Origin: Rickettsiales bacterium
Lineage (GTDB): Bacteria; Pseudomonadota; Alphaproteobacteria; Rickettsiales; UBA6187
Reading direction: 5' to 3'
NCBI GenBank assembly: GCA_040507985.1
Contig: JBEVNR010000016.1
Span: forward strand, 3,509-67,508
Length of the DNA stretch: 64,000 nt
The notes under the pieces are model-generated. The model was given only the letters and a program-made list of their open reading frames with translations, made no database searches and was not told the DNA's origin. Positions 17,368 to 21,202 of the stretch are shown one piece after another. Position numbers and translations under genes: made by a program. Position 1 is the first letter of the stretch; every line of letters starts with the position of its first letter.

Positions 17368-18864
17368 TTAATTCATGTACCGCAAGTTTCCTTTCGGAAA
17401 AACGACGTCCTGGCGCACGAACACGCGCACGCGCGTGCCTTGCCCGACGATCATGGTGGGACCTTTGCCGAACGCTCCGTTGATGGCGCCGCCGACGGAG
17501 GAACCCATGCGCTCGACCGCCGACAAAATGGCCTCGTCCGACGCCGAACGGTTGGTGGTGCTGGTGATGCTGCCGTCGGTGTTGGTGGTGGTGGAACTTG
17601 TTTGCGGCGTGTCTTCGTCCGAAATTTTCTCCGCGATGATGGCTCCGCCGACCGTCAGCACGCTCAGAAGGGCGCTCGTCGAAAATAGTTCGAGGTATTT
17701 TCTGTCGACGAGCGCATGTACGCCGGCGCGGCCTAGCTGATCGGTGCCGGGGAACATTTTTTCTTCAAGATTCACGTCCATCCCGTTCGGCAGGATGATG
17801 CGCGTCCATGCGATGGCGAGGCGGTCCTTGTCCGAACCCATCTCCTTGGCGTCCAAAAATCCCAGCAAGTTGGACAGGTCTTGCGTGCTGTACAACCCGA
17901 CCAGGCGCGAGCCTTTGGGAATAAGGATATTGCGCCCCGTTTCTGAATACACGTCGCGGCTGACCACCGCGCGAACGTAGCCGGGCAAGTCGGTGTTGAT
18001 GGCGCTTTCCAATACGGCTTCGATCATGCGGCCTTGGCCCACCACCAAGTTGGCGTCGCCCATATCCGTCGCGGCGATTTGCAGGCTTTTCGTGTGCTCG
18101 GGCATGGGATTGCCGGACGCGTCCACCGGATTGGTCGGGGTGGCGCCGTTATATTCGCTGACCAGCGGCTGGTCGTAGAAATCTTTTAGCATTCTTTGCC
18201 GTTGCTCTTCGTCCTGCTCTTGCTGGCGGCGCTTCGAGTCTTCGTTGTTCGGGGCGTCGGAAGGCAGGTCGTTCGCCACGACGTTCACCGGCTCCGGACG
18301 GAATATCTCTAAATTTTCTTTTTCCGGCTCTTCCTCCTTGTCTATTTTCGGCGCTTCGGCCTTGGCGTTCTCGTCGAGGAGAATGCCGCCGAACAAATCG
18401 TCGGATTCCGGCGCGGCCGGAGCGTTGATTGTCGGCGCGGATTCGGAGGCCGGTTCTTCCTCGTTAAAAATGGAGGAAAATTTAGGCAACTCCGGCGCCT
18501 TGACGACGCCGATATTTTCGTCGGCGTCGCCGGAGACGGGGGGTTTTTCCGCCTTCGTTTTTTCGGACACCACTTGCGGCGCTTCTTTTTCCTCTTTTTT
18601 TTCGGCGCCGAACGTCATTTTATAGACGAAATATAATCCTACCACCGCCGCGACGCCGACGACCAGAATGTTTTTAGCTTTCGGTCCGCCGATGGAAACG
18701 CCTTGTTCTTCCACCTCCGGCGCCTCCGGGGCGAAGTCCATGCCCGGATCCGCGCGCGATCCGGGAGGAACGTACACGTTTTTTGCGCCGCCCGGCTTCG
18801 CCGCTCCGGGCGTTTGCGATTGCAGCTCGCCGTCAAAATCGTCGCTAAACTCGTTGTCCGCCAT
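17368..18864 (-). CDS. virB10: type IV secretion system protein VirB10/TrbI
   Basis: Acidic/Pro-rich N-terminal region, one TM segment (ILVVGVAAVVGLYFVY), and a C-terminal VirB10 barrel (RLAIAWTRIILPNGMDVNLE.. PGTDQLGRAGV.. GTRVRVFVRQDVVF). Confidence 0.9.
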   Translation of the reverse strand: MADNEFSDDFDGELQSQTPGAAKPGGAKNVYVPPGSRADPGMDFAPEAPEVEEQGVSIGGPKAKNILVVGVAAVVGLYFVYKMTFGAEKKEEKEAPQVVSEKTKAEKPPVSGDADENIGVVKAPELPKFSSIFNEEEPASESAPTINAPAAPESDDLFGGILLDENAKAEAPKIDKEEEPEKENLEIFRPEPVNVVANDLPSDAPNNEDSKRRQQEQDEEQRQRMLKDFYDQPLVSEYNGATPTNPVDASGNPMPEHTKSLQIAATDMGDANLVVGQGRMIEAVLESAINTDLPGYVRAVVSRDVYSETGRNILIPKGSRLVGLYSTQDLSNLLGFLDAKEMGSDKDRLAIAWTRIILPNGMDVNLEEKMFPGTDQLGRAGVHALVDRKYLELFSTSALLSVLTVGGAIIAEKISDEDTPQTSSTTTNTDGSITSTTNRSASDEAILSAVERMGSSVGGAINGAFGKGPTMIVGQGTRVRVFVRQDVVFPKGNLRYMN

Positions 18865-18882
18865 ATTTTTATCCGATGCGCG

Positions 18883-19683
18883 CTACCATTGGCGCGCCGA
18901 AAATTTTTCGTTAAACACCTGCACCATGTCCGCGCCCATGCGCAATTGAAACTCGTTGGCAAGGGCGGTCACGACCACGTACGGTCCTTCGCGCGTATAC
19001 GGGGCTTTTTGCAGCGCGCCTGAAGGTTCCTTCATAAAGATAACCGGCACCACGGCGTTGTTGGCCGGAAATTTCATGTAAGTTCTGTTGCCGTCGTCGA
19101 ACACCTCCACCGGCGCGATGCTATCCGGACCGGCCAGCGTGTAGTCGAAATTATATAATAACGGGCGAATCGTGTCGGAAGGAAGCAGCGAGGCCCTGTC
19201 CACCGATTTCGGCGGCACGTCGTAATTTTCGCTCGGATAGAAGAAACGCACCACGAAGGCGAGCTTTTCGTCCGGTTCGTCGTTGGACGGCGGCGCGGAC
19301 TGAATTTCAAATTGGTACGTATGGTGGTTGGTGAACACGGTCATGTTGGTGCGGCCCGCGCCTTCGAGCGGTTTAATGAACACGCGGTTGTCCGATGGAG
19401 AAATTTTCCACGAGAAAGGGTTGCCGATGGAAATCGTCTCTATTTTTTCGTACTTCGCAAACTCAACGTACGATTGGTAGCCGAATTGAAAGTTAACCCG
19501 ATAGACTTCGTTGGGATTATACACGAAGGTTTTAATGCGGCTGTCCACCGCAACGGTAACGTTTTCGGCGGCGCTATAGGCAAGCGCGCAAGGGGTGGCC
19601 GCCGTGCCTGCGACGAACGACGCCAACGCCCAAAAAAAGGCGGATAACGCAATGCTCCGATTATTCTTGAGGTTTTTCGACAT
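18883..19683 (-). CDS. virB9: type IV secretion system protein VirB9
   Basis: Signal peptide, then RIKTFVYNPNEVYRVNFQFGYQSYVEF.. and GRTNMTVFTNHHTYQFEI, both typical VirB9/CagX/TrbG segments. It lies between virB8 and virB10. Confidence 0.9.
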   Translation of the reverse strand: MSKNLKNNRSIALSAFFWALASFVAGTAATPCALAYSAAENVTVAVDSRIKTFVYNPNEVYRVNFQFGYQSYVEFAKYEKIETISIGNPFSWKISPSDNRVFIKPLEGAGRTNMTVFTNHHTYQFEIQSAPPSNDEPDEKLAFVVRFFYPSENYDVPPKSVDRASLLPSDTIRPLLYNFDYTLAGPDSIAPVEVFDDGNRTYMKFPANNAVVPVIFMKEPSGALQKAPYTREGPYVVVTALANEFQLRMGADMVQVFNEKFSARQW

Positions 19684-20443
19684 ATTCTTGCGTCGTCTTG
19701 TATTGTAGCACTTGAAACCCGACCGGATTGACGTACAGTTCTTCGTCCGTCAACTCCATGTCGATATAATCGTAGCGTATGCGCGCGACCTTGGCGTACT
19801 GGGTCGTTTTTTCCGCAGCTCCCGATTGTAACATTTTGTCCGTCACCAAAAACCGCACCTGTACCGTATGCCCCTTTAGCCCTTCCGGCGTTTCCATGTC
19901 TAAAACGCTTAAGATGCGTATGTCGCGGGTGCCTTGTTCGCCCCATCTGACGGGAGACGTTTCGTTGGCCGGCGACACGTCGCGCCGAAACGCGCGAAAC
20001 ACCTCTTCGCTAGACAGCAATCGCGTCACGGTTTGGTAGTCATATTCATAAGTGGGCGGGAAATATTCCTCCCTCGCGCGCAAGTAGCGCACGATAAAAT
20101 AATTGTTGAGCGCCTTGTTTTCGTCGATATAGGTTTTGGCGATCGGGCGCACCACTTGCGTCATCCCCGATTTTTCCTCCACCTGAATGACGAAGGGTTC
20201 GATTGTTTTTTGCGAGGTGATTTCCGCCACCACCAACACCGAAACGATGACGGCGCCCAAACACACGAGCGATATCACCGCCATGAAGTTGCGTTGCATC
20301 AATATGCCGTTATAGCGGTCGCCGTACCAGTTGTTCATGTTTTTGCGGTTGGCGGCGGAGGAAGCGGGAGCCTCCGCGCCGTTTTTCTCGCGAGGGGTGG
20401 AAAACATGCCGGCGCCGCCGCCGGAACGCGCGTTTTTCTTCAT
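19661..20443 (-). CDS. virB8: type IV secretion system protein VirB8
   Basis: Single N-terminal TM segment (FMAVISLVCLGAVIVSVLVV), a periplasmic NTF2-like domain, and a NPVGFQVLQYK motif near the C-terminus. It overlaps the virB9 start by 23 nt. Confidence 0.9.
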   Translation of the reverse strand: MKKNARSGGGAGMFSTPREKNGAEAPASSAANRKNMNNWYGDRYNGILMQRNFMAVISLVCLGAVIVSVLVVAEITSQKTIEPFVIQVEEKSGMTQVVRPIAKTYIDENKALNNYFIVRYLRAREEYFPPTYEYDYQTVTRLLSSEEVFRAFRRDVSPANETSPVRWGEQGTRDIRILSVLDMETPEGLKGHTVQVRFLVTDKMLQSGAAEKTTQYAKVARIRYDYIDMELTDEELYVNPVGFQVLQYKTTQEYVEKPQE

Positions 20444-20596
20444 TAGGCTTACGATCCGCTACTTATTGGCATTCGTCTCGACATGCGCCGCCCGTCATTA
20501 TTTCGCATCTTTACGGCGCTCATCATACCATGACGACTATGAAAAATAAATTAAATAATAAACTTAATTGAATCTCTCCGAAACGTTTTCGACGTT

Positions 20597-21202
20597 TCAT
20601 CCCGGAATCGTTTCAATCCATGCCGAATTTTTGATGCGAAGCACCACGGCGCCGGCCATCATATCATGCCACCCTTGCCGGCGCGAACTAAAAATTATCC
20701 ATACGAATCCTAGCCCTAAAAATAAAACGGAAGGCACGTACCCCAAAAGGCGCGTGATGCATTGGGAGGCGGATAAGGAGCTTCCCGAGGTCGCGTCCGC
20801 AATGCGCAGTCGCATCACCCACTTGCCGGGAGTGGTATCGAACTTCATCCAACACCATAGCACGAGGGGGATCAATATGGCAGATTGTAGGGCCAATAAC
20901 TTTCCTTGCAGCGCAGCGACGCTCGACAATAAGGGGAGGGCGGTTTTTAGGTCTATTTTTTCCGTTCCCGCCAGAGCTTTTTGATAGATTGCGGCGGCGT
21001 CGGAATGCGCGGGAATGGCGTCGGCAAAATGAAAGAAATGCTGCGCCGCCATAAGGAAAGGGGCAATGACGAAAAACGAAATCGCCGAATCGAGCGCCGA
21101 GGCGAGCAAGCGCTGCGAAAAAGTCGCGTAATCGACCGGAAAGGCGTCGCTCTCCTTTACGCCGGCGGGGGGAAGCGGATAACGTTTCATACGCGAATAC
21201 AC
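20597..21202 (-). CDS. RDD-family membrane protein
   Basis: RLLASALDSAISFFVI.., TPGKWVMRLRI and RRQGWHDMMAGAVVL correspond to the R..D..D pattern and topology of RDD domains. Confidence 0.7.
   Translation of the reverse strand: MYSRMKRYPLPPAGVKESDAFPVDYATFSQRLLASALDSAISFFVIAPFLMAAQHFFHFADAIPAHSDAAAIYQKALAGTEKIDLKTALPLLSSVAALQGKLLALQSAILIPLVLWCWMKFDTTPGKWVMRLRIADATSGSSLSASQCITRLLGYVPSVLFLGLGFVWIIFSSRRQGWHDMMAGAVVLRIKNSAWIETIPG

What the first reader, a model, noticed from the sequence alone, without database searches (positions are those of the whole stretch)
17368..21202. Truncated VirB-type T4SS cluster (RDD protein, virB8, virB9, virB10) lacking virB11/virD4 and any virB7
virB8, virB9 and virB10 homologues are contiguous on the minus strand (a 23-nt overlap and an 18-nt gap), preceded in the same orientation by an RDD-family membrane protein gene.

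In canonical virB operons, and in the Rickettsiales-type virB8-9-10-11-virD4 clusters, virB10 is followed by virB11. Here the operon ends after virB10 in a 91-bp spacer that carries a dispersed repeat copy, and then meets the convergent lipoprotein array A. No virB1-7, virB11 or virD4 is present in the 64 kb.

I searched the 153-bp region upstream of virB8 (20444-20596) for a small VirB7-like lipoprotein ORF and found none. VirB7 is a small lipoprotein of the VirB7/9/10 outer-membrane core complex.

The neighbouring lipoprotein family might supply that role. However, mature VirB9 here has no Cys, so an Agrobacterium-style VirB7-VirB9 disulfide is impossible. The link is therefore only positional.
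Basis: partly seen in the sequence, partly recalled or inferred. Interest (0 to 1): 0.6.

Follow-up and report, generated by a model that had tools for sequence, protein, structure and literature searches.

The report
Rickettsiales secretion-system gene islet, split from virB11
This is an intact virB8-virB9-virB10 gene block of the scattered type IV secretion system typical of Rickettsiales; its only oddity is that virB11, which normally follows virB10, sits on another contig of the same genome, and the neighbouring lipoprotein genes are unrelated bystanders.

Summary
virB10 (17368-18864), virB9 (18883-19683), virB8 (19661-20443) and an RDD-family gene (20597-21202) lie on the minus strand with exactly the stated overlap, gap and spacers. 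No other T4SS domain was found in the 64 kb.

"Truncated" is misleading. The window comes from an NCBI MAG labelled Rickettsiales bacterium, and Rickettsiales scatter their rvh T4SS genes in islets. So the absence of virB1-7 here is expected.

What is unusual is the virB10/virB11 break. virB11 follows virB10 in 79 of 79 related genomes and in both close relatives. Here an intact virB11 lies alone on another contig of the same MAG.

The genes are not relics. Domains are full length, and dN/dS is 0.10-0.23, the same as between relatives that keep the canonical order.

The VirB7-surrogate idea is not supported:
- The five-lipoprotein cassette is a self-contained module found in diverse genomes.
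- It is never next to vir genes anywhere else, including in the closest relatives.
- Its predicted fold is all-alpha, with no solved-structure match.

A missing adjacent virB7 and a Cys-free mature VirB9 are both common among the relatives.

Verdict: an ordinary rvh scaffold islet with a lineage-specific rearrangement. Low interest.

The parts
17368..18864 (-). virB10 (rvhB10). Inner-membrane-anchored protein of 498 aa with a C-terminal TrbI domain that forms the outer-membrane channel.
   Evidence: Pfam PF03743, 4.5e-44, full profile. It is 100% identical to NCBI MET0155125.1, 'TrbI/VirB10 family protein [Rickettsiales bacterium]'. PDB sequence relatives are TrwE 7o3j (1.7e-16) and Xanthomonas VirB10 6gyb. 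dN/dS is 0.16-0.23 against the orthologues in L082 and L084.
18883..19683 (-). virB9 (rvhB9). Secreted periplasmic/outer-membrane core subunit of 266 aa, with both the N- and C-terminal domains.
   Evidence: Pfam PF03524, 1.6e-50, full profile. PDB relatives: TrwF 7o3j, 2e-20 over residues 25-262; TraO N-terminal domain over 46-127; TraO C-terminal domain over 178-262. dN/dS is 0.10-0.12. The only Cys is at residue 32, in the signal peptide.
19661..20443 (-). virB8 (rvhB8). Bitopic inner-membrane assembly factor of 260 aa.
   Evidence: Pfam PF04335, 3.9e-40, profile positions 4-213 of 213. It overlaps virB9 by 23 nt. dN/dS is 0.17 against L082.
20444..20596 (-). 153-bp AT-rich intergenic region upstream of virB8. 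It is the likely place for the islet's own promoter (inferred). No virB7-like ORF lies here.
   Evidence: Sequence and ORF list. The consensus scan found no minus-strand sigma-70-like site here; the nearest is upstream of the RDD gene at 21257-21229.
17277..17367 (.). 91-bp spacer between the convergent virB10 and lipoprotein gene LpA5. It contains a GCCGGC-GTA-GCCGGC hairpin and one copy of a two-copy short repeat.
   Evidence: Sequence. The 28-nt pattern matches exactly at 17302-17329 (+) and with 2 mismatches at 27996-28023 (-); 0 matches are expected by chance. The fold is not better than shuffled sequence (z = -1.07) and no U-run follows the hairpin.
20597..21202 (-). RDD-family membrane protein gene, in the same orientation upstream of virB8. 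It is a neighbour and possibly co-transcribed, but not a conserved T4SS partner.
   Evidence: Pfam PF06271, 8.5e-19. No RDD homologue occurs in any of the 80 related vir loci. The close relative L082 has secA upstream of virB8 instead. A promoter-like site lies at 21257-21229 on the minus strand, 10 of 12 matches.

Best explanation
The block is the virB8-virB9-virB10 scaffold islet of a Rickettsiales-type (rvh, P-type) type IV secretion system. It sits in the chromosome of an uncultured, unusually GC-rich (56.5%) bacterium that NCBI labels Rickettsiales.

How it works (from knowledge of homologous systems, not tested here):
- VirB8 is a bitopic inner-membrane assembly factor.
- VirB9 is exported and forms the periplasmic/outer-membrane rings.
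- VirB10 is anchored in the inner membrane and spans the periplasm. Its C-terminal domain lines the outer-membrane pore and responds to the VirB11 and VirD4 ATPases.

The other subunits are encoded elsewhere, as is normal for rvh systems. In this lineage a rearrangement cut the otherwise invariant virB10-virB11 junction. virB11 now stands alone, behind at least 258 bp of non-coding DNA, on another contig of the same MAG. virD4 linkage was already lost in this clade.

The rearrangement placed virB10 tail to tail with an unrelated five-gene lipoprotein cassette. The RDD gene and the lipoprotein cassette are bystanders.

Shown here: gene identity, intactness, purifying selection, the broken synteny, the relocated virB11, and the lack of any conserved link to the lipoproteins or RDD. 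Inferred: that the machine is assembled and functional, and that virB3/4/6/virD4 exist elsewhere in the genome.
For: Identity and intactness: full-length Pfam matches and PDB sequence relatives covering both VirB9 domains and the VirB10 C-terminal domain.

Lineage: VirB10 equals NCBI MET0155125.1 from a 'Rickettsiales bacterium' MAG, on a 101-kb contig. The named top homologues carry Rickettsiales or Alphaproteobacteria labels.

Chromosomal setting: the neighbours are housekeeping genes, including era, serS, purD, guaB, nusA, infB and ftsK.

Synteny:
- In 80 species-level related genomes, virB8-9-10 is followed by virB11 in 79 of the 79 with enough sequence downstream. The median gap is 10 nt.
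- virD4 then follows in 68 of 74.
- The close relatives show secA | virB8-9-10-11 | ddl (L082) and virB9-10-11 (L084).

virB11 elsewhere in the same genome:
- P0124 is 87% identical to the L082 VirB11 and equals MET0155518.1, which NCBI also labels Rickettsiales bacterium. Its accession is 393 numbers after that of VirB10.
- It lies on a 47-kb contig and also occurs in the same sequencing run, SRR28982155, as the window.
- On that contig it has 258 bp of AT-rich non-coding DNA upstream, with no virB10 remnant, and a convergent methyltransferase gene downstream.
- Identity ranks the same way (L084 above L082) for VirB9, VirB10 and this VirB11.

Selection: dN/dS is 0.17 (virB8), 0.10-0.12 (virB9), 0.16-0.23 (virB10) and 0.04 (virB11). 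These equal the values between the two relatives that keep the canonical order.

The junction is not an assembly artefact of one assembler: an independent Logan contig of 14 kb shows the same order from era to the aminotransferase gene.

Literature: rvh genes lie in scattered islets (PMC2653234), and rvh T4SS are present in basal environmental Rickettsiales (PMC9352585).
Against: - virB3/4/6, virB2 and virD4 of this MAG were not located, so completeness of the system is assumed.
- Assigning the virB11 contig to the same genome rests on accession proximity, the same organism label, the same run and consistent identity ranking. There is no physical linkage.
- The two assemblies of the junction probably share the same reads.
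- The 80 comparison loci are the best-scoring 80 of 380 matches, so rarer gene orders among the other 300 were not seen.
- No expression data exist.
- dS is saturated (1.2-2.3), so the dN/dS values are rough.
Confidence: 0.8

Rival explanations
1. The five-lipoprotein cassette next to virB10 has been recruited as the outer-membrane lipoprotein partner of VirB9/VirB10. It would be a VirB7 surrogate, which would explain the missing virB7.
For: - All five proteins have lipoboxes.
- The cassette ends 91 bp from the virB10 stop.
- No virB7 was found in the window.
- VirB7-like proteins are diverse and hard to detect by sequence (PMC2653234).
Against: - The cassette is convergent to virB10, not co-oriented with it.
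- A second five-gene cassette of the same family lies at 35227-36980, far from any vir gene.
- Orthologous cassettes in the closest relatives are not next to virB10. L087, from the same sample as the virB9-10-11 contig L084, is followed by trpG-trpD; L085 is followed by unrelated sequence.
- All 14 metagenome loci with LpA5-subfamily cassettes (GC 30-43%) lack VirB8/9/10/11/D4 within up to 10 kb on each side.
- None of the 80 vir loci contains a family member when searched with family HMMs.
- The predicted fold is all-alpha (pLDDT 94.5) and has no PDB match below E = 4.5. It therefore matches no solved VirB7, TraN or DotD structure.
- Lack of an adjacent virB7 is the norm in these lineages: only 2 of 68 loci have a candidate.
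Confidence: 0.03
2. virB8-10 is a decaying remnant of a T4SS that lost its ATPases.
For: No virB11, virD4 or virB4 lies in the 64 kb. The conserved operon structure is broken.
Against: - The ORFs are uninterrupted and cover the full domain profiles.
- dN/dS is 0.10-0.23, no higher than between relatives with intact operons.
- An intact virB11 with dN/dS of 0.04 is present in the same MAG.
- The tight virB8/9 overlap and the 18-nt virB9-virB10 gap are preserved.
Confidence: 0.07
3. The virB10/lipoprotein junction is a misassembly or binning chimera. In the real genome virB11 follows virB10.
For: The source is a metagenome-assembled genome. The spacer contains a short repeat that also occurs at 27996-28023. 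The Logan virB11 contig ends 258 bp upstream of virB11, in low-complexity sequence.
Against: - Two assemblies give the same junction: the NCBI MAG contig of 101 kb and the Logan contig of 14 kb.
- The repeat is only about 30 nt, shorter than sequencing reads.
- The 258 bp upstream of virB11 show no similarity to the virB10 3' end, whereas the usual virB10-virB11 gap is about 10 nt.
- GC content and codon-position GC are uniform across the junction.
Confidence: 0.05

Closest known systems
Rickettsia rvh T4SS, islet C (virB9a-virB8a-virB7-virB8b-virB9b-virB10-virB11-virD4; Gillespie et al. 2009, PMC2653234)
   Same: It is a chromosomal P-type T4SS whose genes are scattered in islets among housekeeping genes. 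virB8, virB9 and virB10 are contiguous and apart from virB3/4/6. The closest sequence relatives are Rickettsiales.
   Different: There is no virB11 or virD4 after virB10, no adjacent virB7, and no local virB8/virB9 duplicates. The VirB9 here lacks the Cys that Rickettsia VirB9a retains (PMC2653234).
virB8-virB9-virB10-virB11-virD4 operon of Anaplasmataceae and most uncultured Rickettsiales (for example Neoehrlichia mikurensis, locus L081)
   Same: The order and tight spacing of virB8-9-10 are the same, and no virB7 lies directly upstream.
   Different: 79 of 79 such loci continue into virB11, and 68 of 74 then into virD4. The window stops at virB10, and virB11 is on another contig.
Close uncultured relatives L082 (JGI 3300066487) and L084 (beach-sand metagenome ERZ937833)
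   Same: Amino-acid identity is 65-68% for VirB10, 75-82% for VirB9 and 71% for VirB8. These relatives also lack virD4 after virB11.
   Different: They keep virB11 directly after virB10. L082 has secA, not an RDD gene, upstream of virB8.
Solved P-type T4SS core complexes: R388 TrwF/TrwE (7o3j), Xanthomonas VirB7/9/10 (6gyb) and pKM101 TraN/TraO/TraF (3jqo)
   Same: VirB9 and VirB10 here are sequence homologues of the core-complex subunits, and the interacting domains are covered. They presumably build the same kind of outer-membrane core complex.
   Different: Those complexes include a VirB7-type lipoprotein. None has been identified for this genome.

Membership tests
P-type T4SS scaffold (VirB8/VirB9/VirB10) | Each protein matches its family profile above the curated threshold over the full domain. 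| tested here: met
   PF04335 scores 138 bits, PF03524 172 bits and PF03743 151 bits, each with full profile coverage.
P-type T4SS scaffold (VirB8/VirB9/VirB10) | VirB9 has both the N-terminal domain and the C-terminal domain that binds VirB7/VirB10. VirB10 has an N-terminal membrane anchor and a C-terminal barrel domain. | tested here: met
   PDB matches cover VirB9 residues 25-262 (TrwF), 46-127 (TraO N-terminal domain) and 178-262 (TraO C-terminal domain). They cover VirB10 residues 238-490. A hydrophobic segment is visible near VirB10 residues 65-85 in the translation.
P-type T4SS scaffold (VirB8/VirB9/VirB10) | The energising ATPases VirB4, VirB11 and (usually) VirD4 are present in the same genome. 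| tested here: inconclusive
   virB11 was found on another contig of the same MAG.
Rickettsiales vir homologue (rvh) T4SS | The genes are scattered in chromosomal islets, with the virB8-10 block separate from virB3/4/6. | tested here: met
   No virB3/4/6 domain occurs in the 64 kb, and the flanks are housekeeping genes. The islet concept comes from PMC2653234.
Rickettsiales vir homologue (rvh) T4SS | virB10 is contiguous with virB11 and virD4 in one islet. | tested here: not met
   virB10 is followed by a 91-bp spacer and a convergent lipoprotein gene. virB11 follows virB10 in 79 of 79 relatives.
Rickettsiales vir homologue (rvh) T4SS | virB4, virB8 and virB9 are duplicated, virB6 is multicopy, and virB5 is absent. 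| not testable with these tools
   This needs the whole MAG. Only the 64-kb window and a 3.4-kb virB11 contig were accessible.
Rickettsiales vir homologue (rvh) T4SS | The closest homologues are rvh components of Rickettsiales. | tested here: met
   The named VirB10 homologues carry Rickettsiales labels, including Neorickettsia and Anaplasma; most of the others are unnamed metagenome proteins. The 80 loci are titled Rickettsiales or Alphaproteobacteria in nearly every case.
VirB7-type T4SS lipoprotein (applied to the adjacent lipoprotein cassette) | A lipoprotein signal peptide with a lipobox Cys. | tested here: met
   All 10 paralogues have a hydrophobic leader ending in an (A/S/G)-C motif. 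That Cys is invariant in the alignment.
VirB7-type T4SS lipoprotein (applied to the adjacent lipoprotein cassette) | It is encoded with, and co-occurs with, T4SS core genes across genomes. | tested here: not met
   None of the 80 vir loci holds a family member. None of the 14 cassette loci holds a vir gene. The cassettes of close relatives lie elsewhere in their genomes.
VirB7-type T4SS lipoprotein (applied to the adjacent lipoprotein cassette) | Structural resemblance to a known VirB7, TraN, N0-domain VirB7 or DotD. | tested here: not met
   The AlphaFold model (pLDDT 94.5) is all-helical. The best Foldseek PDB hit has E = 4.5. A profile search found no PDB sequence match at E <= 1.
VirB7-type T4SS lipoprotein (applied to the adjacent lipoprotein cassette) | Physical binding to the VirB9 C-terminal domain. 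| not testable with these tools
   No multimer prediction or experiment was available.

The most novel reading that the evidence does not exclude
In this lineage the T4SS scaffold genes have been uncoupled from their ATPase genes and joined to a five-lipoprotein cassette. One or more of these all-alpha, two-cysteine lipoproteins would then act as a new kind of outer-membrane partner of VirB9/VirB10, replacing VirB7. The evidence makes this unlikely but does not exclude it for this one genome, because no protein-protein test could be run and no virB7 has been found.
Probability: 0.03. Interest if true: 0.6.

Novelty: new member of a known kind. Interest (0 to 1): 0.15.

Why it matters
It matters little. 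The block adds one more rvh-type T4SS scaffold islet from a GC-rich, metabolically less reduced Rickettsiales-labelled MAG. It also shows that the virB10-virB11 junction, unbroken in every other genome examined here (81 of 81), can be broken without visible relaxation of selection. That is a small point for people reconstructing rvh evolution or using synteny to call T4SS loci in MAGs.

The practical lesson is that an apparently "truncated" vir cluster in Rickettsiales should be read as one islet, not as a degenerate system.

The more interesting by-product is the uncharacterised lipoprotein family. It forms conserved five-gene cassettes and has no Pfam, NCBIfam or PDB relative. It deserves its own study but has no demonstrated tie to the T4SS.

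Tried and rejected
- Operon remnant downstream of virB10: rejected. The spacer is only 91 bp, and neither tblastx nor blastn found a virB11 trace in the window.
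- virB7 in the 153-bp gap or nearby: rejected. Only 21-25-aa ORFs without Cys lie there. A lipobox-ORF scan of 730 nt upstream of virB8 found none.
- RDD as a T4SS accessory: rejected. It is absent from all 80 related loci and from L082.
- The spacer as a strong intrinsic terminator or structured RNA: not supported. The fold z-score is -1.07, no U-run follows the hairpin, and there is no Rfam hit.
- Naming the lipoprotein family through Pfam, NCBIfam, PDB sequences or PDB folds: no hits.
- The AFDB fold library was unavailable.
- The word-indexed protein search found only 6 family members. The exhaustive profile search found 623.
It was redone with the LpA5 subfamily.
- A search of the fetched loci for the spacer repeat used a mistyped pattern (one T too few). 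It is uninformative.
- Looking up the context of a further family member returned a contig of only 1.3 kb.
- The genome-collection scan did not return the window's own genome, so the rest of the MAG could not be read.

Full report
**1. Observation**

The minus strand carries four consecutive ORFs:
- 20597-21202: 201 aa.
- 19661-20443: 260 aa.
- 18883-19683: 266 aa.
- 17368-18864: 498 aa.

Pfam assigns them to RDD (8.5e-19), VirB8 (3.9e-40), CagX/VirB9 (1.6e-50) and TrbI/VirB10 (4.5e-44). The three Vir profiles are covered end to end.

The stated 23-nt overlap, 18-nt gap, 153-bp upstream gap and 91-bp downstream spacer are all exact.

I scanned every sizeable ORF of the window, and the small intergenic ones, against Pfam. 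I also ran phmmer with Neoehrlichia VirB11 and VirD4 against all window ORFs. No further T4SS component appears.

The surroundings are chromosomal housekeeping genes: rpsP, rimM, purD, era, serS, rtcB, guaB, metG, nusA, infB, ftsK and a thiolase gene.

The 153-bp gap has no lipoprotein ORF. VirB9's only cysteine is residue 32, inside the signal peptide.

**2. Source**

The VirB10 sequence is identical to NCBI MET0155125.1, "MAG: TrbI/VirB10 family protein [Rickettsiales bacterium]", on a 101-kb contig. The locus tags begin with ABW189.

An independently assembled 14-kb Logan contig from run SRR28982155 (L001) has the same order: era, phaC-like gene, five lipoprotein genes, virB10-9-8, RDD gene, pilY1-like gene, aminotransferase gene.

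The window is 56.5% GC. That is high for the order and fits the less reduced environmental Rickettsiales that also carry rvh systems (PMC9352585). I did not place the organism phylogenetically.

**3. Comparative gene order**

A scan of species-representative genomes with a VirB10 alignment gave 80 loci, nearly all labelled Rickettsiales or Alphaproteobacteria. I annotated them by phmmer with the window proteins plus VirB11 and VirD4 taken from Neoehrlichia mikurensis.
- virB8-virB9-virB10 is followed by virB11 on the same strand in 79 of the 79 loci with sequence downstream. The median gap is 10 nt.
- virD4 follows within 3 kb in 68 of 74.
- No locus has an RDD homologue or a member of the lipoprotein family near the vir genes.

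The closest relatives, at 65-68% VirB10 amino-acid identity, were retrieved by exact-protein look-up.
- L082 reads secA | virB8-9-10-11 | ddl.
- L084 reads virB9-10-11, then a convergent 172-aa gene.

This clade has therefore already lost the virB11-virD4 linkage. Only the window genome has lost the virB10-virB11 linkage.

Missing virB1-7 is simply the rvh "archipelago" arrangement described for Rickettsia (PMC2653234).

**4. Where virB11 went**

A search with the L082 VirB11 found P0124 at 87% identity. It equals MET0155518.1, again "[Rickettsiales bacterium]", on a 47-kb contig. Its accession is 393 numbers after the VirB10 accession, which indicates the same submission.

The same protein lies on a 3.4-kb Logan contig (L083) from the same run, SRR28982155. 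On that contig:
- virB11 is preceded by 258 bp of AT-rich DNA. No gene was called there, and the stretch has no similarity to a virB10 3' end.
- It is followed by a convergent methyltransferase gene.

The identity ranking is L084 above L082 for VirB9 (82 versus 75%), VirB10 (68 versus 65%) and this VirB11 (89 versus 85%). That fits one genome.

The system is therefore not truncated. Its ATPase gene has been relocated.

**5. Relic or functional?**

Nei-Gojobori estimates against the orthologues:

| Gene | dN/dS |
|---|---|
| virB8 | 0.17 |
| virB9 | 0.10-0.12 |
| virB10 | 0.16-0.23 |
| solitary virB11 | 0.04 |

These are indistinguishable from L082 versus L084, which keep the canonical order. 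dS is saturated, so the values are rough, but nothing suggests relaxed constraint.

VirB9 aligns to solved TrwF (7o3j, 2e-20) over residues 25-262, and to both TraO domains. VirB10 aligns to TrwE, Xanthomonas VirB10 and ComB10 over its C-terminal domain.

**6. The virB7/lipoprotein idea**

The plus-strand genes at 14716-17276 encode five lipoproteins. A second set of five lies at 35227-36980. All share a lipobox Cys and a domain of roughly 55-75 residues carrying the motifs GW-x-DGC-x-SG and Y-x3-W-x5-YC, with two invariant cysteines.

The family:
- An exhaustive profile search finds 623 cluster representatives at E <= 1e-3.
- There is no Pfam, NCBIfam or PDB sequence match.
- The AlphaFold model is confident (pLDDT 94.5) and all-helical. 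It has no PDB fold match below E = 4.5.

Context:
- The five genes of cassette A have one-to-one orthologues in L085/L086 and L087/L088.
- In L087, which comes from the same sample as the virB9-10-11 contig L084, the cassette is followed by trpG-trpD.
- In L085 it is followed by unrelated sequence.
- A metagenome scan with the LpA5 subfamily returned 14 loci of 30-43% GC. Most of them show tandem arrays of about five family genes. None has VirB8/9/10/11/D4 within the flanks, and they share no common neighbour.
- One further family member sits in a similar array beside unrelated genes.

The adjacency to virB10 is therefore unique to this genome and is a by-product of the rearrangement.

The two "missing" features are also ordinary. 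Only 2 of 68 related loci have any lipobox ORF within 700 nt upstream of virB8. 45 of 71 VirB9 orthologues have no Cys beyond residue 40. The literature notes that the VirB7-VirB9 disulfide is not conserved in most T4SSs (PMC2653234).

**7. Spacer and regulation**

The 91-bp spacer contains a GCCGGC-GTA-GCCGGC hairpin and one copy of a short repeat of about 30 nt. The second copy is at 27996-28023 on the opposite strand; 0 matches are expected by chance.

The spacer does not fold better than shuffled sequence, and no U-run follows the hairpin. Its role is unknown. It may serve as a terminator for both convergent units.

The only minus-strand promoter-like consensus site near the block lies upstream of the RDD gene, at 21257-21229. 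Co-transcription of RDD with virB8-10 is therefore possible but unproven. No comparative evidence supports a functional tie.

**8. Verdict**

This is an intact scaffold islet of a known kind of system, the rvh-type P-T4SS, in a new MAG. A lineage-specific rearrangement separated virB11 from virB10.

Its word "truncated" and its lipoprotein hypothesis are not supported. Interest is low, at 0.15.

The most novel reading not excluded is that cassette lipoproteins were recruited as a VirB7 substitute in this genome only. I rate that at about 3%.

Noticed in passing
window 14716-17276 (+) and 35227-36980 (+); loci L085, L087, L090-L103: An uncharacterised lipoprotein family forms conserved tandem cassettes of about five distinct paralogues. 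The window has two cassettes. The proteins share the motifs GW-x-DGC-x-SG and Y-x3-W-x5-YC, with two invariant cysteines, and are predicted to be all-alpha (pLDDT 94.5). A profile search finds 623 cluster representatives, but there is no Pfam, NCBIfam or PDB relative. The cassettes occur in genomes of 30-57% GC and share no common neighbour.
   Followed up: partly
protein P0384 (787 aa, from the profile search): One family member has no lipobox but about ten tandem repeats of the same GY-x-DGC ... Y-x-x-GW ... C unit. The domain can therefore occur as a repeat array within one polypeptide.
   Followed up: no
window 20523-20600 (-): A 25-aa ORF (MKRRKRFGEIQLSLLFNLFFIVVMV) starts in an ATGA overlap with the RDD stop codon. 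It looks like a small hydrophobic peptide with a basic N-terminus and has no Cys, so it is not VirB7-like. It may be chance in an AT-rich spacer.
   Followed up: no
window 21403-24930 (+): A 1175-aa secreted protein is transcribed divergently from the RDD gene. It has an NHL repeat, a VWA domain and weak beta-propeller (PQQ-like) matches. The layout resembles PilY1-type pilus tip adhesins, but that resemblance was not tested.
   Followed up: no
window 17302-17329 (+) and 27996-28023 (-): A two-copy short repeat (CACACTTTTTCAGCCATAGGCCGGCGTA, 2 mismatches between the copies) lies in two intergenic regions: after virB10/LpA5 and after serS. Zero matches are expected by chance. Its function is unknown.
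   Followed up: partly
window 39002-39777 (+), inside a low-GC stretch (38-40 kb, 49% GC): A TacA-like antitoxin gene (PF08681, 4.9e-24) overlaps a GNAT acetyltransferase gene by 4 nt. The pair looks like a TacAT-type toxin-antitoxin module.
   Followed up: no
window 33399-34979 (+), 61207-62463 (+), 57639-58556 (-), 8788-9438 (-), 9719-10807 (+): Several sizeable ORFs have no Pfam match. Most have lower third-position GC (0.45-0.55 against about 0.70-0.75 for their neighbours). They may be recently acquired or lineage-specific genes. Whether any is a T4SS substrate is unknown.
   Followed up: no
window 31071-32048 (-): A protein with a spore-coat-U (SCPU, PF05229) domain, a family of secreted pilus-like subunits. 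Together with the pilY1-like gene it suggests surface structures that are unusual for classical Rickettsiales.
   Followed up: no
loci L082 and window 48946-54156: In relative L082 the rimP-nusA genes lie about 6 kb from virB8. In the window they lie about 28 kb away, in the same relative orientation. About 22 kb (RDD gene, pilY1-like gene, serS, lipoprotein cassette B and others) is therefore additional or rearranged between them.
   Followed up: partly
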